DNA of 64,000 bases from the IMG/VR virus record IMGVR_UViG_3300029208_000007. One strand, given 5' to 3'. This DNA is from a virus. The notes below the pieces were generated by a model. The model searched no databases. It was not told the origin of the DNA and was given only the letters and a program-made list of their open reading frames with translations. The translations under genes and the position numbers were made by a program. Below, in pieces: positions 1,691 through 33,978 of this stretch; within the stretch, counting starts at the first letter, position 1, and each line of letters opens with the position of its first letter.

Positions 1691-1770
1691 AACGATACCT
1701 CCTATAATTATATAATAAACGCAAACGTTTCAAAAATCAATAATAATTCACTTGAATGTGAACAATATAC

Positions 1771-1799
1771 TTGCAATCGCACACGCTAAGGTGTATAAT
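1771..1799 (+). promoter_or_regulatory. sigma-A type promoter for the recombinase operon
   Basis: TTGCAA, 17 nt spacer, TATAAT. The palindrome TTCAC-N6-GTGAA at 1747-1762 just upstream is a possible operator. Confidence 0.6.
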
Positions 1800-1829
1800 T
1801 TATTTATAAAGAAACAGGAGCGTGTATAT

Positions 1830-2420
1830 ATGAAGGTAGGATATGTAAGGGTTTCAACAGTTGACCAGAACGAAGCAAGACAGATTGAAGCCATGAAAGC
1901 AGATAGCGTTGAAAAAATATACGTGGACAAACAGTCAGGAAAAGATTTTAATCGTCCGCAATACCAGCAAATGATTTCGGAACTTAGAGAAGGTGACATG
2001 CTGGTTCTCCATTCTATCGATCGTCTCGGAAGAAATTATGAAGAGATTCTGGAACAATGGAGGATTATTACAAAAGAAATCAAAGCGGACATCATGGTTC
2101 AAGATATGCCACTTCTCAATACATCCATATCAAAAAATTTGGATGGTACGTTTGTAGCAGACTTGGTTCTCCAGATTCTTTCGTATGTATCGCAAAAAGA
2201 AAGAGAAAATATCAAACGCCGTCAAGCAGAGGGCATTGCCATTGCTAAGGCTCAGGGCAAATATAAAGGACGTGCAAAGAAAGAGATTGACAAAAAACTT
2301 TTTGAAGATACTAAAGCCAGATGGCAGAATGGTGAGATTACAAAAATTCAATTTGCTGAGATCATTGGAGTTTCCAGGGGAACATTATACAAAATCTTAG
2401 GGGAGGAAAAGGATGATTGA
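1830..2420 (+). CDS. small serine recombinase (resolvase/invertase family)
   Basis: The N-terminus MKVGYVRVSTVDQN carries the catalytic Ser motif. It also has LHSIDRLGRN and a C-terminal HTH (IAEIIGVSRGTLYK). ATG at 1830 follows an AGGAG RBS. Confidence 0.85.
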   Translation: MKVGYVRVSTVDQNEARQIEAMKADSVEKIYVDKQSGKDFNRPQYQQMISELREGDMLVLHSIDRLGRNYEEILEQWRIITKEIKADIMVQDMPLLNTSISKNLDGTFVADLVLQILSYVSQKERENIKRRQAEGIAIAKAQGKYKGRAKKEIDKKLFEDTKARWQNGEITKIQFAEIIGVSRGTLYKILGEEKDD

Positions 2421-4457: not shown

Positions 4458-4754
4458 AAATATGCTTTTAGCATTTCCAATGCAGATTATCCTGTTCATT
4501 ATCGAAGAACGGGTTAATCATATAAGCAATGCGAAAGGATACGCTTGTCCCGTAGTGGAGCGGTACGCAAGCAAACGATCGAGACATCCGATTTAGCAAA
4601 CATGGCTCTACAAAAAAGAGAACAACTTAGTTATTTAAATGCTGAATTCTCCACATAAGTTGTGCTGCAATTGTAGAGCACATAATAAAAATATTATCAC
4701 ACACTCAATTCTTTCTCCTGCTTTTGTAATGGTGCGGAGTGGGAGAAAGATTTT

Positions 4755-4826
4755 AGGGCTATCACCAAAAGGTAAGGTAACGGACTTTGATTCCGTCATG
4801 TGTGGGTTCGAATCCCACTAGCCCAG
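4755..4826 (+). tRNA. tRNA-Gln (UUG)
   Basis: Cloverleaf folded by hand. Anticodon stem ACGGA/TCCGT with loop CTTTGAT. T-arm GTGGG-TTCGAAT-CCCAC. Six acceptor pairs plus an A1.A72 mismatch. Confidence 0.75.
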
Positions 4827-4886
4827 TTTGCCGGGTTGCGCATGTACCTGGCAATGGTTTATTTTACATAGACCCTCCGACGAAAA

Positions 4887-4938
4887 CCCATCTAGCTCAA
4901 CGGAGCTGATTAAAGGGGCTTCAAATGTCCCGGATGGG
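4887..4938 (+). ncRNA. two-armed mini tRNA-like element (acceptor + hairpin + T-arm, no anticodon arm)
   Basis: Acceptor CCCATCT/GGATGGG. Hairpin AGCTC-aacg-GAGCT. T-arm GGGGC-TTCAAAT-GTCCC. Confidence 0.45.
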
Positions 4939-5060
4939 AATCATCGTAAAAACGATGTACTCTATTTAGCCATGACCTTTGTTGCGGCTGGTGGCAAAGA
5001 ACCGCAACAGTAGAAGCAAATCAACTCAAAATCTGCAATCCGGGAGACTGCTTCTACTCA

Positions 5061-5133
5061 GGAAATTTAGTTCAGCGGTTAGAACGCCCGGCTCATAACC
5101 GGGAAGCCTTGAGTTCGAATCTCAGAATTTCCA
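5061..5133 (+). tRNA. tRNA-Met/Ile2 (CAU)
   Basis: Acceptor GGAAATT/AATTTCC. D-arm GTTC-AGCGGTTA-GAAC. Anticodon loop CTCATAA. T-arm TTGAG-TTCGAAT-CTCAG. Confidence 0.9.
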
Positions 5134-5422
5134 TTTCTTCCGTATGCTACCCATCCGTTTTATGGGCAGAAAAAACTTTCGGATGAGCGTATGTGAATCA
5201 GAATGAGCAAAGGTATGTAACGGCATAGGCTTGTGCTTGATCTGATTTCCCGTCCGATAAATGTTTCTTAGTTTCAATAAGCCATCACAAGCGCGCATTG
5301 ATGACAAGGGAGTTTTCAAGAAACATAAAGTCAAAAGGCATAATAATATCCGAAACAACTTCGTGGGGCTGGCACGGCATAAAACAGCCTAGTGGAACGC
5401 ATAACACGAAAAAATCATTGCT

Positions 5423-5441
5423 AACCCGGGGTGCCCGGGTT
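5423..5441 (+). other. GC hairpin immediately 5' of tRNA-Tyr
   Basis: AACCCGGG-gtg-CCCGGGTT. It could be a processing or terminator element. Confidence 0.4.
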
Positions 5442-5443
5442 TT

Positions 5444-5526
5444 GGGAGAATATTCCGTAGGGGTAGCGGTGCTGGCTGTAAACCAGTTGCTTAACGGCTC
5501 GGGTGGTTCGACTCCATCTTCTCCCA
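5444..5526 (+). tRNA. tRNA-Tyr (GUA), type II with long variable arm
   Basis: Acceptor GGGAGAA/TTCTCCC. Anticodon loop CTGTAAA. T-arm GGTGG-TTCGACT-CCATC. The D-arm is non-canonical (a CCG/CGG stem with extra nucleotides at positions 8-9). Confidence 0.7.
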
Positions 5527-5624
5527 TTATCTCATATTCAGATGAGATATGAGGATGCTGTCCGAGATGTAAGAAACAGTCGGCTAGTGGGTTGCCGGTA
5601 CAAATATGCTGAAAATCCACATAA

Positions 5625-5695
5625 AGCAGGATAGAGAAGTGGTTTCTTCCTGGTTTTCTTATCCAGAGACGGTGGTTCGAATCCGCCTCCTGCAA
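5625..5695 (+). tRNA. tRNA-Arg (UCU)-like
   Basis: D-arm GAGA/TCTT. T-arm GGTGG-TTCGAAT-CCGCC. The anticodon stem has only 4 bp (CTGG/CCAG) and the loop TTTCTTA has a pyrimidine at position 37. There is an A1.A72 mismatch. Confidence 0.6.
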
Positions 5696-5816
5696 TTAAT
5701 CCGTCTATCGTTCAGCGGATTAAAACAAATTCTCAATACACCTTCTTTCTATGAATGTGGAACTCAACCCAATTGCTCTTTCATTGGAGTGATTGACCGT
5801 TATAGGCGGTAAATAT

Positions 5817-5930
5817 GGCGAGGTAGCTCAATTGGTAGAGCAGTAAAAGATTGTAAGTCATGTTTGTGACTTCTACAGCAATTCTTCCATTACAAGGTAC
5901 GTGTTGATGGTTCGACTCCATCCCTTGCCA
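5817..5930 (+). ncRNA. tRNA-like RNA with a 51-nt extended hairpin replacing the anticodon arm
   Basis: Acceptor GGCGAGG/CCTTGCC. Canonical D-arm GCTC-AATTGGTA-GAGC and T-arm GATGG-TTCGACT-CCATC. Between them, 5843-5893 forms a long irregular hairpin (GTAA/TTAC, AGATTG/CAAT-TCT, AAGTCA/TGACTT, loop TGTTTG). Confidence 0.6.
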
Positions 5931-6085
5931 CTATGTGGTGCTTACAGCAATTATTCTGGATATGACTGTAAATCATAAAACCCGAAAGCATCATGAAAAT
6001 TAGGGGACACTTACAGCAACTTATTTATTAAATGGCGAATATTTTATAATTCATTTTATTTTTTGTGTCCTGAAAGGAGAAAAAC

Positions 6086-7543
6086 ATGGATTTCGCAAAC
6101 GCAATGAAAAAAGAAGGCAAATTCACAAGAACCGAAAATGGTGCAGTCGCACTGAACACCACAAGCGATGCAAGACTTGATTTGTTCGGAACTATTGGAG
6201 CATTAAGAGATGCTGATGAGAATAGAATCACTACATTGTTCTCAGAAGCGTATGCACAGGATAAACTCTTTGCAACAAAGATAATTTTCTATGCAAGAGA
6301 TATTCGTTGCGGACTTGGAGAAAGAAAAACTTTCCGAACCATTATTCGCTATATGGCAGAGCATCATCCAGAAGCACTCAGACCAAACCTTGATTTGATT
6401 GGAGTATTTGGAAGATACGATGATCTTTATGAATTGATTGGAACTCCATTGGAAGATGATATGTGGAAGACCATGAAAAATCAGTTCGAGGAAGATTTGA
6501 AGAATCTTAATGATGGAAAAGCAATTTCTCTGCTTGCTAAATGGATTAAAACTGCTGATGCAAGTAGCGCAGAGACTAGAAAATTAGGAATTCTGACTGC
6601 ACAGAAGTTAGACTATCCAGTTTACAACTTTAAGAGAATCGTTCGCAGTATGAGAAAACAGATAGGTGTTGTCGAAAGTCTCATGTCTGCCGGCAAGTGG
6701 AACGAGATTAAATATCCAGAAGTTCCAAGCCGTGCAATGATGATTTATCGTAGAGCCTTTGCAAAGCATGATCCTGATGGTTTTAGCGAGTTCGTCAATA
6801 AAGCTGATAAGGGAGAAGTTAAAATTAATGCTTCAACCTTGTATCCATACGATATCGTAGAGAAAATTCTTTACGGAAAAGAAAACAACAAAGTTCTTGA
6901 AGCACAATGGAAAGCACTTCCAGATTATATTGAACAGGGAACAAATGCACTGATAATGGCTGATGTATCTGGTTCAATGTATGGAAGACCAATGGCAACC
7001 TCAATTGGTCTGGCAATATATTTTGCTGAGAGAAATACAGACGCATATCATAATTTGTTTATGACATTCTCTAGTAATCCACAGATTGTCACATTAAAGG
7101 GCGAAACACTTCACCAGAAAATAATCAATGTTGCAAAAGCAAATTGGGGTTGCAGCACAAACCTTAAAGCAGCATTTGAGAAAGTACTCGATATTGCTGA
7201 AGAGAACAATGTCTCTCAAGAAGAAATGCCGAAAGCTATAGTTGTTATCTCTGATATGGAAATTGATTATAGTGGAAATAAGGACTGGTCTTTCTATGAC
7301 AAAATGGAAAAGAAATTCCAAAAAGCCGGATATATCATTCCGAACGTTATCTTCTGGAATGTATACAGCAGACATGATGTATTTCATGCTGATGCAAAAC
7401 GTAAAGGCGTACAGATTGCAAGTGGCCAGTCGGTAACAGTGTTCAAACAGGTTTTACAGAATCTTGGATATAATCCAGTTGAAGCTATGGAGAATACAAT
7501 CAATTCAGAAAGGTACGACTGCATTACAATTGAGAAAATATAA
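6086..7543 (+). CDS. DUF2828-like / TROVE(Ro60)-like alpha-helical + vWA domain protein
   Basis: The N-terminus TENGAVAL..ARLDLF..YARDIRCGLGERKTF..HHPEAL matches the DUF2828 pattern. The C-terminal vWA has the MIDAS-like segment ADVSGSM. Confidence 0.7.
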   Translation: MDFANAMKKEGKFTRTENGAVALNTTSDARLDLFGTIGALRDADENRITTLFSEAYAQDKLFATKIIFYARDIRCGLGERKTFRTIIRYMAEHHPEALRPNLDLIGVFGRYDDLYELIGTPLEDDMWKTMKNQFEEDLKNLNDGKAISLLAKWIKTADASSAETRKLGILTAQKLDYPVYNFKRIVRSMRKQIGVVESLMSAGKWNEIKYPEVPSRAMMIYRRAFAKHDPDGFSEFVNKADKGEVKINASTLYPYDIVEKILYGKENNKVLEAQWKALPDYIEQGTNALIMADVSGSMYGRPMATSIGLAIYFAERNTDAYHNLFMTFSSNPQIVTLKGETLHQKIINVAKANWGCSTNLKAAFEKVLDIAEENNVSQEEMPKAIVVISDMEIDYSGNKDWSFYDKMEKKFQKAGYIIPNVIFWNVYSRHDVFHADAKRKGVQIASGQSVTVFKQVLQNLGYNPVEAMENTINSERYDCITIEKI

Positions 7544-7638: not shown

Positions 7639-7673
7639 GACGATATAATAAAATCAGCTTTGGTTAGTTAAGT

Positions 7674-7756
7674 GGTGCATTGCTGTAATGGTAACAGAGA
7701 GACTTGCTAAGTCTTCCAACAGAAATGTTGTCCGTGTTCGAATCACGGATGCACCG
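7674..7756 (+). tRNA. tRNA-Ser (GCU), type II
   Basis: Acceptor GGTGCAT/ATGCACC. D-arm CTGT-AATGGTAA-ACAG. Anticodon loop TTGCTAA. Variable arm CAACA-gaaa-TGTTG. T-arm CCGTG-TTCGAAT-CACGG. Confidence 0.9.
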
Positions 7757-7796
7757 TTCCAATGAACTGCAATCATTGGAAGGATTTCATTTTTAT
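7757..7796 (+). terminator. hairpin (9 bp) after tRNA-Ser
   Basis: TTCCAATGA-actgcaa-TCATTGGAA followed by T-rich sequence. Confidence 0.4.
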
Positions 7797-33745: not shown

Positions 33746-33978
33746 TTTTTGCGGTAGAATTTGATATACTAAACGAGAAATAGTTATTACATTTGTTGAA
33801 GAGAGCACACTAAAGATGAAACGAGGGAAAAACCTCACGATTCTTTTGTGTGCTCTTTTTTTGTTTGGTAAAACCAACAGGCTAACCCGACGGGGGACAA
33901 GCGGAAATGCCTTGCCGCCTGCCTGTTGATTTACATACATTTCAAGGCATCTTATATACGAAAGGCAGGTATTTTTTT

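What the first reader, a model, noticed from the sequence alone, without database searches (positions are those of the whole stretch)
5817..5930. tRNA-like gene with a 51-nt extended hairpin in place of the anticodon arm, 155 nt upstream of the vWA gene
The sequence has a good 7-bp acceptor stem (GGCGAGG/CCTTGCC), a textbook D-arm (GCTC-AATTGGTA-GAGC) and a textbook T-arm (GATGG-TTCGACT-CCATC).

The 63 nt between them cannot form a 5-bp/7-nt anticodon arm. Instead, 5843-5893 folds into one long irregular helix: GTAA/TTAC, AGATTG/CAAT(T)CT with a bulge, AAGTCA/TGACTT, and loop TGTTTG.

Two readings are possible:
- (a) A Y-RNA-like molecule, with a tRNA-like body plus a bulged helix that could be a protein-binding site. 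Its topology would be a circular permutation of bacterial YrlA, because here the ends lie in the acceptor stem.
- (b) A tRNA gene carrying a short non-group-I intervening sequence. Removing it would need an endonuclease plus the co-encoded RtcB, which would be archaeal/eukaryal-style splicing in a phage.

Either would be unusual.
Basis: partly seen in the sequence, partly recalled or inferred. Interest (0 to 1): 0.7.

Follow-up and report, generated by a model that had tools for sequence, protein, structure and literature searches.

The report
tRNA-shaped partner RNA of phage Ro60-like protein
A gut-phage gene that looks like a tRNA with 41 extra bases is most likely a tRNA-mimicking small RNA that partners with the neighbouring gene, a hidden relative of the Ro60 RNA quality-control protein; it belongs to a large, undescribed family of phage RNAs.

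Summary
The tRNA-like gene at 5817-5930 is real. It scores 46.4 bits on the Rfam tRNA model and its acceptor, T and upper anticodon stems covary in 40 distinct homologues.

The anticodon arm is split: GTA[41 nt]CC-AUUACAA-GG-UAC. The 41-nt insert (5846-5886) is a covarying hairpin followed by a near-invariant single-stranded ACAGCAA.

The same motif recurs twice just downstream, in two ~60-nt stem-closed RNAs (5936-5995 and 6005-6072).

The adjacent "vWA gene" (DUF2828) models at pLDDT 96, and its eight best PDB matches are all Ro60, TROVE or Rsr.

In 55 unrelated DUF2828 phage loci the heptamer is about 30-fold enriched on the gene strand just upstream. It occurs in stand-alone RNAs, in T-arm-containing RNAs and inserted in many different tRNA-like genes.

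Best reading (about 0.6): a Y-RNA-like, tRNA-mimicking ligand of a Ro60-like protein.

Splicing to tRNA-Val (option b) is less likely. There is no BHB, group I or ribozyme signature, the junction position varies, some relatives have non-decoding loops, and RtcB is not a conserved neighbour.

The stand-alone RNAs also resemble Dictyostelium Class I RNAs, but below the Rfam threshold.

The parts
5817..5930 (+). tRNA-shaped non-coding RNA gene (114 nt; no encoded CCA) with a 41-nt insert in the 5' strand of the anticodon stem
   Evidence: Rfam tRNA model 46.4 bits. Own covariance model R1 scores 133.8 bits here, and full-length homologues score above 98 bits in 76 of 81 related loci. Covariation on 40 distinct sequences: 93.9% of cells paired against 87.6% in shuffles; 13 pairs changed on both sides, reached by 0 of 500 shuffles.
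5817..5823 (+). Acceptor stem, 5' strand (pairs with 5923-5929; discriminator A at 5930)
   Evidence: 4 of 7 pairs show compensatory changes (GGCGAGG/CCTTGCC, GACGAGG/CCTCGTC, AGTGAGG/CCTCACT); 99.6% of cells paired.
5826..5841 (+). D-arm, GCTC-AATTGGTA-GAGC
   Evidence: 98.8% of cells paired; nearly invariant.
5843..5845 (+). Upper anticodon stem, 5' strand (tRNA positions 27-29, GTA), pairing with TAC at 5898-5900
   Evidence: All three pairs show compensatory changes across clades: GTA/TAC, ATG/CAT, CG./.CG.
5846..5886 (+). 41-nt insert, the conserved 'module': A, then AAGA (base helix 5' strand), TTG-T, the apical hairpin, CT, ACAGCAA, T, then TCTT (base helix 3' strand)
   Evidence: Present at full length in every homologue, with no insert-free allele seen. 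The excision scan gives one unique solution that restores a canonical arm.
5855..5872 (+). Apical hairpin AAGTCA-TGTTTG-TGACTT, with the conserved top TCATG...GTGA
   Evidence: 99.2% of cells paired; 3 pairs with compensatory changes (AAGTCA/TGACTT, TAGTCA/TGACTA, GGATCA/TGATCC, AGATCA/TGGTCT).
5875..5881 (+). Single-stranded ACAGCAA motif, two nucleotides 3' of the hairpin
   Evidence: Near-invariant in 40 homologues. Tolerated variants are GCAGCAA, TCAGCAA, ACCGCAA, ACAGCGA and ACAGCTA. Enriched about 30-fold upstream of DUF2828 genes in unrelated phages.
5887..5897 (+). Lower anticodon stem and loop: CC-ATTACAA-GG (positions 30-40; U33, UAC, A37)
   Evidence: The CC/GG pairs are 100% paired (invariant, or changed on one side only). 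The loop triplet differs between clades: UAC, AAC, GCU, ACU, UCC with A33, and a 9-nt loop.
5906..5922 (+). T-arm, GATGG-TTCGACT-CCATC
   Evidence: 99.5% of cells paired; GATGG/CCATC, GGTGG/CCACC, GGCGG/CCGCC.
5936..5995 (+). Stand-alone motif RNA 'copy 2': closing stem UGGUGC(UU)...GCAUCA, ACAGCAA at 5944-5950, internal hairpin AUGA-CUGUAAA-UCAU at 5962-5976 that resembles an anticodon stem-loop, and a UG tail
   Evidence: Fold. Conserved in all relatives, including those that lack the tRNA-like gene. The closing stem covaries: TGATGC/GCATCA, TGACGC/GCGTCA, TGACCC/GGGTCA. The loop triplet varies between orthologues: GUA, GUU, GCU.
6005..6072 (+). Stand-alone motif RNA 'copy 3': GGACAC-UU-ACAGCAA...GUGUCC-UG, ending 3 nt before the ribosome-binding site of the Ro60-like gene
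   Evidence: Fold z-score -2.1. Sub-threshold match to Rfam Dicty_Class_I_RNA: 27.3 bits against a gathering score of 41.5. The stem covaries: GGACAC/GTGTCC, GGACTC/GAGTCC.
6086..7543 (+). Ro60/Rsr-like protein (Pfam DUF2828 + DUF7788/vWA; 485 aa), the presumed protein partner
   Evidence: Pfam match. PHROG 850 'RNA-binding protein'. AlphaFold2 model with a 117-sequence alignment: pLDDT 95.9, pTM 0.94. The Foldseek top 8 PDB matches are all Ro60, TROVE or D. radiodurans Rsr: probability 1.0, E 4e-7 to 8e-5, TM up to 0.62, aligned over the full length.
4754..5695 (+). Upstream array of ordinary tRNA genes (Gln UUG, Met CAU, Tyr GUA, Arg UCU) on the same strand; tRNA-Ser GCU follows the Ro60-like gene at 7673-7757
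   Evidence: ARAGORN and Rfam. No convincing promoter or terminator lies between the array and 7757; a terminator-like hairpin sits at 7757-7781.
9848..11944 (+). RNA-repair genes of this phage: an RNA ligase (9848-10441; PHROG 14301, RLIG1-like) and RtcB (10742-11944)
   Evidence: These are not conserved neighbours of DUF2828 outside this clade, so their membership in the system is uncertain.

Best explanation
The locus encodes a ribonucleoprotein of the Ro60/Y-RNA type. The 'vWA gene' at 6086-7543 is a divergent Ro60-like ring protein with a vWA domain.

The element at 5817-5930 is one of its three adjacent partner RNAs. It has a complete tRNA body: acceptor stem, D-arm, T-arm and a split anticodon arm. 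A 41-nt module is grafted into the 5' strand of the anticodon stem. The module is a hairpin followed, two nucleotides later, by single-stranded ACAGCAA.

The inferred mechanism is as follows:
- The hairpin-plus-ACAGCAA module docks on the Ro60-like protein, as the conserved helix of a Y RNA docks on Ro60.
- The tRNA body, or in the stand-alone RNAs the small anticodon-stem-loop look-alike, acts as a tRNA mimic.
- The mimic either tethers the protein to tRNA-recognising enzymes (processing, repair or modification) or presents a decoy or bait to host tRNA-cleaving defences during infection.
- The RNA is probably matured like a tRNA (RNase P, 3' trimming, CCA addition), because its ends lie in a standard 7-bp acceptor stem.

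Shown here: the structure and its covariation, the Ro60-like fold, and the genomic association of motif and gene.

Inferred: physical binding, and the tRNA-mimic, tether or decoy role.
For: 1. The RNA is real and under selection. It scores 46.4 bits on the tRNA model, has 40 distinct homologues, and its acceptor, upper anticodon, apical-hairpin, insert-base and T stems covary.
2. The insert is the most conserved non-tRNA part: TCATG..GTGA and ACAGCAA are near-invariant.
3. The neighbouring protein has a Ro60/TROVE+vWA fold: pLDDT 95.9, and the top 8 PDB matches are Ro60, TROVE or Rsr. PHROGs calls the family 'RNA-binding protein'.
4. The motif is linked to the gene, not to this one phage. In 80 diverse DUF2828 loci, ACAGCAA on the gene strand occurs at 2.95 per kb within 700 nt upstream, against 0.16 per kb elsewhere. 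Excluding the window's own clade, 34 of 55 loci have it within 1 kb, at 1.85 per kb against 0.05 per kb on the opposite strand.
5. The same unit (helix, two nucleotides, ACAGCAA, then a spacer and an anticodon-like hairpin) occurs without any tRNA body. There are 193 distinct stem-closed RNAs, median 62 nt, and 46% carry such a hairpin against 5.8% of shuffled controls. Two of them lie in the window, at 5936-5995 and 6005-6072. It also occurs in RNAs that enclose only a T-arm.
6. The module is inserted in many different tRNA-like genes, at different positions.
7. The anticodon triplet is not held constant between close orthologues. Some relatives have A33 or G33, a 9-nt loop, a tetraloop-capped 7-bp stem, or no anticodon hairpin at all. 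This fits a mimic better than a decoder.
8. There is precedent. Bacterial and phage Y RNAs encoded next to Ro60 orthologues contain tRNA-like domains and can be cut by RNase P and receive CCA, and the orientation of the tRNA-like parts differs between Y RNA families (PMC4201824).
Against: - No binding or expression data are available.
- Similarity to Ro60 is at fold level only. Pfam finds no TROVE domain by sequence, TM-scores are 0.44-0.62, and sequence identity is 12-16%.
- The RNA has neither the Ro-binding helix of metazoan Y RNAs nor the GNCGAAN0-1G motif of YrlA, so binding would have to use a different interface.
- The window's own element, and 15 of 26 elements in the first set, restore a perfectly canonical anticodon arm when the insert is removed, against 2.7% of shuffled controls. 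That is what an intron would leave behind.
- 21 of 55 distant DUF2828 loci have no exact heptamer within 1 kb upstream.
- Motif copies 2 and 3 could be 5'-UTR regulatory sites rather than stable RNAs.
Confidence: 0.6

Rival explanations
1. Intron-containing tRNA-Val(UAC). The 41 nt at 5846-5886 are excised between positions 29 and 30 by a protein endonuclease that leaves 2',3'-cyclic phosphate and 5'-OH ends. The exons are joined by the phage RtcB at 10742-11944, or by a host RtcB, to give a working tRNA. The Ro60-like protein might recognise the intron.
For: - Excision gives a unique, perfect 5-bp stem GUACC/GGUAC and the loop AUUACAA, with U33 and A37.
- 15 of 26 elements in diverse phages give canonical arms, against 2.7% of shuffled controls.
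- In some cases the discriminator fits the anticodon, for example U73 with the Gly anticodons UCC and CCC.
- RtcB and a second RNA ligase are encoded 4-5 kb downstream.
- The anticodon is not redundant with the window's ordinary tRNAs.
Against: - No bulge-helix-bulge can be drawn at the junctions (inspection).
- 41 nt is far too short for a group I intron, and no ribozyme or intron family matches even at E <= 10.
- The inferred junction lies after position 26, 27, 28, 29, 30, 31 or 37 in different genes, at no fixed distance from the motif.
- In the Lachnospiraceae genome set only 10 of 41 elements give a canonical loop, and one clade has a 7-bp stem with a tetraloop.
- Clade B has a 9-nt loop on an unchanged Val-type body.
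- The L005-type element has the module but no anticodon hairpin.
- The module also occurs in RNAs with no exons.
- RtcB lies within 5 kb in 0 of 55 loci outside the window's own clade.
- No insert-free allele was seen among 81 related loci.
Confidence: 0.2
2. Cis-regulatory leader. The tRNA-like element and the two downstream motif elements are parts of one long 5' leader of the Ro60-like mRNA. The ACAGCAA sites serve for autoregulation or processing rather than as free-standing partner RNAs.
For: - No convincing promoter or terminator separates the tRNA array, the motif elements and the ORF.
- Copy 3 ends 3 nt before the ribosome-binding site.
- The three copies are spaced exactly 69 nt apart.
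Against: - In other phages, motif RNAs lie kilobases from the DUF2828 gene, downstream of it, and in long tandem arrays among tRNA genes (for example 12 copies in L088 and 11 in L083).
- Each unit has its own closing stem, which covaries.
- The tRNA-shaped ones have standard acceptor stems that RNase P would release.
Confidence: 0.1
3. Decaying tRNA pseudogene that suffered an insertion.
For: ARAGORN does not call it, and the anticodon triplet varies between relatives.
Against: - The cloverleaf stems are maintained by compensatory changes across sequences that are 70-100% identical.
- The insert is more conserved than the flanking stems.
- The same module recurs in many independent tRNA-like genes.
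Confidence: 0.02

Closest known systems
Bacterial and phage Y RNAs of the YrlA type with their Ro60 orthologue Rsr (Rfam RF02553; Chen et al. 2014, PMC4201824)
   Same: - A ~100-130-nt non-coding RNA encoded next to a Ro60-type ring protein with a vWA domain.
- The RNA combines a protein-binding module with a tRNA-like domain (D-arm, T-arm, acceptor-like stem).
- The locus in this phage also holds RtcB, as in the Salmonella rsr-yrlBA-rtcBA operon.
- Several RNAs per locus.
   Different: - The protein is DUF2828, not a TROVE-domain protein by sequence.
- The RNA has no GNCGAAN0-1G strand and does not reach the YrlA model's threshold.
- Its ends lie in a true 7-bp acceptor stem and the protein-binding module sits in the anticodon stem. 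That is the inverse topology of YrlA, where the ends lie in the Ro-binding stem and the acceptor stem is capped by a loop.
- It keeps an anticodon hairpin.
Dictyostelium Class I RNAs (Rfam RF01414; Kjellin et al. 2021, PMC7919456)
   Same: This comparison applies to the two stand-alone RNAs (5936-5995, 6005-6072) and 193 relatives:
- a stem of about 6 bp joining the 5' and 3' ends;
- the motif placed directly after the 5' strand, (C)UUACAGCAA against the Class I motif CCUUACAGCAA;
- a median length of 62 nt against about 60 nt;
- a U-G-U/A tail after the 3' strand, against CUGU;
- a variable interior.

   Different: - Scores of 23-27 bits are below the gathering score of 41.5 and vanish in larger searches.
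- The two nucleotides before ACAGCAA are variable in phages.
- The promoter element DUSE is eukaryotic.
- Class I RNAs are reported to bind the RRM protein CIBP, and no Ro-like partner is known for them.
- The tRNA-embedded form has no Dictyostelium counterpart.
Archaeal and eukaryal protein-spliced tRNA introns (bulge-helix-bulge, EndA/TSEN plus RtcB)
   Same: - A short (tens of nucleotides) intervening sequence in the anticodon arm, at a non-canonical position such as 29/30, as occurs in archaea.
- Exon halves that restore a canonical arm.
- RtcB encoded nearby.
   Different: - No bulge-helix-bulge.
- No splicing endonuclease identified.
- The insert carries a conserved sequence motif that also exists in RNAs without exons.
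- Many homologues would not give a decoding tRNA.
Natural and engineered tRNA scaffolds that carry a foreign hairpin in the anticodon stem (own knowledge: the Ponchon-Dardel tRNA scaffold; viral tRNA-linked small RNAs)
   Same: A functional hairpin displayed on an otherwise intact tRNA body, which would give RNase P/CCA maturation and stability.
   Different: Here the anticodon hairpin is kept beside the insert, and the insert is tied to a specific neighbouring protein gene.

Membership tests
tRNA (Rfam RF00005) | Score at or above the curated gathering threshold (29 bits) | tested here: met
   46.4 bits at 5817-5930.
tRNA (Rfam RF00005) | 7-bp acceptor stem, D-arm and T-arm with conserved loop residues | tested here: met
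   the stems covary.
tRNA (Rfam RF00005) | Contiguous 5-bp anticodon stem with a 7-nt loop, so that the RNA is able to decode | tested here: not met
   The stem is interrupted by 41 nt between positions 29 and 30. ARAGORN does not call the gene. The triplet is not conserved among orthologues.
YrlA / bacterial Y RNA (Rfam RF02553) | Score at or above the gathering threshold (69 bits) | tested here: not met
   No hit in the window. The only hit is a 21.5-bit partial match over an ordinary T-arm in L079. No hits in 13 further loci.
YrlA / bacterial Y RNA (Rfam RF02553) | Ro60-binding strand motif GNCGAAN0-1G in the stem formed by the RNA ends (PMC4201824) | tested here: not met
   Reading the sequence: there is no GNCGAA in 5817-5930, and the ends form an acceptor stem.
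YrlA / bacterial Y RNA (Rfam RF02553) | Encoded adjacent to a Ro60 orthologue | tested here: met
   Met at fold level only. The gene 155 nt downstream models as Ro60/Rsr-like, with no TROVE domain by sequence.
YrlA / bacterial Y RNA (Rfam RF02553) | Physically bound by the Ro60 orthologue | not testable with these tools
   Needs immunoprecipitation or a gel-shift assay.
Ro60 / TROVE + vWA proteins (the neighbouring gene) | Ring of helical repeats followed by a vWA domain, as in 1YVP, 2I91 and 2NVO | tested here: met
   AlphaFold2 pLDDT 95.9. Foldseek top 8 matches are Ro60, TROVE or Rsr over 498-572 aligned columns, probability 1.0.
Ro60 / TROVE + vWA proteins (the neighbouring gene) | Pfam TROVE domain detectable by sequence | tested here: not met
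   Only DUF2828, DUF7788 and VWA_2 at E <= 0.01. phmmer against PDB sequences finds only a vWA protein.
Dictyostelium Class I RNA (Rfam RF01414), for the stand-alone copies at 5936-5995 and 6005-6072 | Score at or above the gathering threshold (41.5 bits) | tested here: not met
   27.3 bits (window 6005-6072) and 23.6/23.7 bits (L079). No hits at the gathering threshold in 13 loci.
Dictyostelium Class I RNA (Rfam RF01414), for the stand-alone copies at 5936-5995 and 6005-6072 | Short stem joining the 5' and 3' ends, the 11-nt motif CCUUACAGCAA directly after the 5' strand, and a length of about 42-65 nt | tested here: inconclusive
   The architecture is present. Copy 3 matches 10 of the 11 motif positions (UUACAGCAA preceded by the stem's last C). 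Median length is 62 nt in 193 RNAs. The resemblance rests on a short motif, so chance or convergence is not excluded.
Protein-spliced tRNA intron (archaeal/eukaryal type) | Bulge-helix-bulge motif at the exon-intron junctions | tested here: not met
   By inspection and the folds: one unpaired nucleotide 5' of the insert helix and none 3' of it, with no 3-nt bulges separated by 4 bp.
Protein-spliced tRNA intron (archaeal/eukaryal type) | A splicing endonuclease (EndA/TSEN family) encoded or available | not tested
   Only 20 window ORFs were scanned. No such domain was seen among them.
Group I intron or self-cleaving ribozyme | Match to a known catalytic RNA family | tested here: not met
   No such family matches at E <= 10 in 5780-6090. 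The insert is only 41 nt.

The most novel reading that the evidence does not exclude
The phage ACAGCAA RNAs and the Class I RNAs of Dictyostelium are one ancient RNA family whose cognate protein is the DUF2828 branch of the Ro60 superfamily. DUF2828 proteins are known in plants and in mimivirus-like viruses of amoebae.

If so, Class I RNAs would be the 'Y RNAs' of a second Ro-like lineage. Their function has been open since 2004, and one pulled-down partner, DDB_G0281243, is uncharacterised.

A second unexcluded reading, at about 0.1-0.2, is that the tRNA-embedded modules are true protein-spliced introns, which would be the first enzymatic tRNA splicing system in bacteriophages.
Probability: 0.15. 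Interest if true: 0.9.

Novelty: new variant of a known kind. Interest (0 to 1): 0.72.

Why it matters
- **A second Ro-like lineage.** Ro60/Y-RNA particles are an RNA quality-control system whose bacterial and viral roles are still poorly understood. This locus suggests that a second, sequence-unrecognisable Ro-like lineage (DUF2828, thousands of members) has its own large family of partner RNAs, defined by a hairpin or stem plus ACAGCAA. None of these RNAs is in Rfam 15.
- **Mis-annotated tRNA genes.** Many of these RNAs are grafted into otherwise intact tRNA bodies. That would explain a class of over-long "tRNA genes" in gut-phage genomes that tRNA finders miss or mis-annotate.
- **Possible role in phage-host conflict.** It would tie phage tRNA clusters to an RNA surveillance or repair particle, possibly a counter-measure to host anticodon nucleases.
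- **A testable lead for Class I RNAs.** It offers a testable protein partner for the enigmatic Dictyostelium Class I RNAs.

Tried and rejected
- **Bulge-helix-bulge at the junctions:** it cannot be drawn.
- **Group I intron or small ribozyme** (hammerhead, twister, pistol, hatchet, HDV-like): no core motifs by eye and no Rfam hit at E <= 10.
- **Intron-anticodon pairing:** UUGUAA (5851-5856) is perfectly complementary to UUACAA in the loop. The pairing is not kept in clade C, in L014 or in L012, so it is treated as chance.
- **ACAGCAA as a promoter or terminator element:** the flanks fit no sigma-70 hexamers, and the scan finds fewer promoter-like sites than in shuffles.
- **CRISPR-repeat mimic:** the only hit is 14 bits, on the wrong strand.
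- **Pseudoknot between the hairpin loop and ACAGCAA:** no covariation between loop variants and motif variants.
- **Fixed distance from the motif to the junctions:** none. The spacing is 5-22 nt on the 3' side and 8-17 nt on the 5' side.
- **Single-sequence AlphaFold model:** useless at pLDDT 39.5; redone with an alignment.
- **MAFFT alignment A2:** it misaligned the D-arm in clade C, so sequences were realigned with covariance model R1.
- **Attempts to test the Dictyostelium link all failed.** The 2011 pull-down paper is not held. DDB_G0281243 appears in only one paper, without domain information. Cluster look-ups gave no organism names. A search with a giant-virus DUF2828 fragment gave only unnamed metagenomic fragments. 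The giant-virus locus L082 holds no motif, but its gene is cut at the contig end.
Full report
**1. The observation**

The Rfam tRNA model matches window 5817-5930 (+) at 46.4 bits (gathering score 29, E 1e-6), with 52 nt inserted where the anticodon arm should be. ARAGORN finds the five ordinary tRNA genes around it but not this one. The next ORF starts 155 nt downstream.

**2. What the sequence family shows**

The neighbouring protein retrieved 80 closely related viral contigs and one GenBank phage fragment. 76 of these 81 loci carry a full-length homologue of the element, insert included, at 70-100% identity. That gives 40 distinct sequences.

I realigned them to a covariance model of my proposed structure. 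93.9% of cells pair, against 87.6% in column shuffles and 42-49% when partners are slid. 13 pairs change on both sides, a value reached by 0 of 500 shuffles.

Supported helices:
- the acceptor stem (4 compensatory pairs);
- the T stem;
- the three pairs joining 5843-5845 (GTA) to 5898-5900 (TAC), all compensatory;
- the apical hairpin AAGTCA/TGACTT (3 compensatory pairs);
- the base of the insert helix, AAGA/TCTT.

Read this way, the anticodon arm is split rather than missing: GTA [41 nt, 5846-5886] CC-AUUACAA-GG-UAC. Removing the insert would give a perfect 5-bp stem and a canonical loop with anticodon UAC.

Within the insert, the hairpin top TCATG..GTGA and a single-stranded ACAGCAA two nucleotides after the hairpin (5875-5881) are nearly invariant. 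Tolerated motif variants are GCAGCAA, TCAGCAA, ACCGCAA, ACAGCGA and ACAGCTA.

**3. The motif recurs outside the tRNA**

ACAGCAA occurs again at 5944 and 6013, each 69 nt from the last. Both copies sit directly after the 5' strand of a stem whose partner lies about 40-50 nt downstream: UGGUGC..GCAUCA for 5936-5995, and GGACAC..GUGUCC for 6005-6072. The folds are, and the stems covary among relatives.

These two elements are conserved even in the five relatives that lack the 5817-5930 homologue. Where the upstream sequence is held (L005, L009, L010, L011), those relatives carry a different tRNA-like RNA at the same place. It has an acceptor stem, a T-arm and the module (hairpin + ACTGCAA), but no anticodon hairpin at all.

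**4. The neighbouring gene is Ro60-like**

Pfam sees DUF2828 + DUF7788/vWA, and PHROGs labels the family "RNA-binding protein". A single-sequence model failed. With 116 diverse homologues, AlphaFold2 gives pLDDT 95.9 and pTM 0.94.

The eight best PDB matches are Xenopus/human Ro60, a TROVE domain and Deinococcus Rsr. They align over the full length, at probability 1.0, E 4e-7 to 8e-5 and TM up to 0.62. Isolated vWA domains follow far behind. Sequence methods do not see this relationship.

Ro60 orthologues are the proteins that partner with Y RNAs, and bacterial and phage Y RNAs encoded beside them contain tRNA-like domains (PMC4201824; PMC7824862).

**5. The association is general**

An alignment headed by a distant family member retrieved 80 DUF2828 loci from many environments, at about 38-47% identity to that member.
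- ACAGCAA on the gene's strand occurs at 2.95 per kb in the 700 nt upstream, against 0.16 per kb elsewhere.
- Excluding the 25 loci of the window's own clade, 34 of 55 loci have the heptamer within 1 kb upstream.
- In those 55 loci the density is 1.85 per kb, against 0.05 per kb on the opposite strand. The random expectation is 0.06 per kb.

Three contexts recur:
1. **Stem-closed RNAs.** There are 193 distinct examples, median 62 nt. 46% hold a hairpin of at least 4 bp with a 7-nt Y-U-NNN-R-N loop, against 5.8% of shuffled interiors. About 14 of the 89 are really T-arms. A U-G-A/U tail follows the stem.
2. **Stem-closed RNAs that enclose a T-arm.** This is the YrlA-like layout.
3. **Over-long tRNA hits of 101-134 nt with the module in the 5' side of the anticodon arm.** I found 17 in 13 unrelated loci, three or four in tandem in L071-L080, and about 40 in Lachnospiraceae genomes.

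The common unit is a helix, two or three nucleotides, ACAGCAA, a spacer of 5-12 nt, and then a hairpin shaped like an anticodon stem-loop. In the window element that hairpin continues into a whole tRNA.

**6. Spliced or not?**

In favour of splicing:
- 15 of 26 elements give a fully canonical anticodon arm on excision, against 2.7% of shuffled controls. The window's own element is one of them.
- This phage encodes RtcB and a second RNA ligase.

Against splicing:
- The junction falls after position 26, 27, 28, 29, 30, 31 or 37 in different genes, at no fixed distance from the motif.
- There is no bulge-helix-bulge, group I or ribozyme signature.
- Only 10 of 41 elements in the Lachnospiraceae set give a canonical loop. 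Many have A33 or G33, and one clade replaces the loop with a tetraloop on a 7-bp stem.
- Clade B has a 9-nt loop on an unchanged Val-type body.
- Orthologues differ in the triplet: UAC, AAC, GCU, ACU and UCC in the tRNA form, and GUA, GUU and GCU in copy 2.
- The module also exists without exons.
- RtcB is within 5 kb of DUF2828 in 0 of 55 loci outside this clade.
- No insert-free allele was found.

I therefore rank "tRNA-mimicking partner RNA" (0.6) above "intron-containing tRNA" (0.2). The two are not mutually exclusive.

**7. Mechanism proposed**

Shown:
- a tRNA-shaped RNA with a conserved, structured insert;
- a Ro60-fold protein gene next to it;
- a strong, strand-specific, lineage-independent link between the motif and that gene family.

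Inferred:
- The hairpin-plus-ACAGCAA module is the protein's docking site.
- The tRNA body gives RNase P/CCA maturation and mimics tRNA.
- The mimic tethers the Ro-like ring to tRNA-handling enzymes or acts as bait for tRNA-cleaving host defences.

The rapid turnover of the "anticodon" would fit an arms race, but it is equally compatible with relaxed constraint. No promoter or terminator separates the tRNA array, the three RNAs, the ORF and tRNA-Ser. A terminator-like hairpin follows at 7757-7781, so they may be made from one precursor. Hosts are Lachnospiraceae.

**8. Comparison with known families**

- **YrlA-type Y RNAs.** The system works like a Ro60/Y-RNA pair. It is not YrlA: it fails the Rfam threshold, lacks the GNCGAAN0-1G strand, and has the opposite topology.
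- **tRNA.** By score it is a tRNA, but its anticodon arm is interrupted.
- **Dictyostelium Class I RNAs.** A permissive Rfam scan unexpectedly matched the stand-alone copies to this family: 27.3 bits at 6005-6072 and two hits in L079. Stem, motif position, motif sequence (CCUUACAGCAA against C-UUACAGCAA), length and tail all agree. However, the scores are below the gathering score of 41.5 and disappear in larger searches, so membership is not established.

On the Class I lead: DUF2828 proteins occur in plants and in mimivirus-like viruses. One of four proteins pulled down with a Class I RNA, DDB_G0281243, is uncharacterised. I could not determine its domains. This remains a lead, at a probability of about 0.15.

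**9. Verdict**

The finding is real and its better reading is (a). It is a new variant of a known kind: a Ro60-like protein family unrecognised by sequence, with its own large, undescribed family of partner RNAs, some of them grafted into tRNA bodies. Interest 0.72.

Noticed in passing
L005:3744-3841 (also L009, L010, L011): In relatives that lack the 5817-5930 homologue, a different tRNA-like RNA directly abuts tRNA-Tyr. It has an acceptor stem TGCCCCA/TGGGGCA, a 6-bp hairpin in place of the D-arm, the module (GAACA-TGTCTG-TGTTC + ACTGCAA) in the anticodon-arm position, and a T-arm, but no anticodon hairpin.
   Followed up: partly
window 5875, 5944, 6013: The three ACAGCAA copies are spaced exactly 69 nt apart. 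I have no explanation for this; it could be a relic of tandem duplication or a constraint on processing.
   Followed up: no
L091:1706-2083: One of the distant DUF2828 phage contigs encodes a full-length class B bacterial RNase P RNA (238 bits, gathering score 97), inside its tRNA and motif-RNA cluster.
   Followed up: no
L079:1110-1183 and L076:1254-1327: ARAGORN reports a tRNA with a four-base anticodon (acca), that is, an 8-nt anticodon loop. It could be a frameshift-suppressor-type tRNA in these phages.
   Followed up: no
window 33875-33947 (+): Rfam int-alpA RNA at 49 bits (gathering score 35.8), a phage-associated small-RNA motif.
   Followed up: no
window 1752-2420 (+) and 12010-13704 (+): A serine recombinase (Resolvase + HTH_7) lies upstream of the tRNA cluster, and the 564-aa ORF after RtcB is a terminase large subunit (PHROG 38). 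The RNA/repair cassette therefore sits just before the packaging genes of a temperate Lachnospiraceae phage.
   Followed up: partly
L158:7943-8107: Sub-threshold match to HEARO RNA (51.7 bits, gathering score 83) in a DUF2828 phage locus. The contig also has repeated 'ttttggatatctgttaattttaagt' units near its motif copies.
   Followed up: no
window 5851-5856 versus 5890-5895: UUGUAA in the insert is perfectly complementary to UUACAA in the anticodon loop. Other clades do not conserve this, so it is probably chance, but it would compete with the anticodon hairpin in this particular RNA.
   Followed up: yes
L088:4767, L091:4854, L085:4809, L151:4872: Stem-closed motif RNAs whose interior holds a T-arm-like GGTTCRAnnCC hairpin, giving the same overall layout as YrlA (ends in the closing stem, tRNA-like part inside).
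   Followed up: partly
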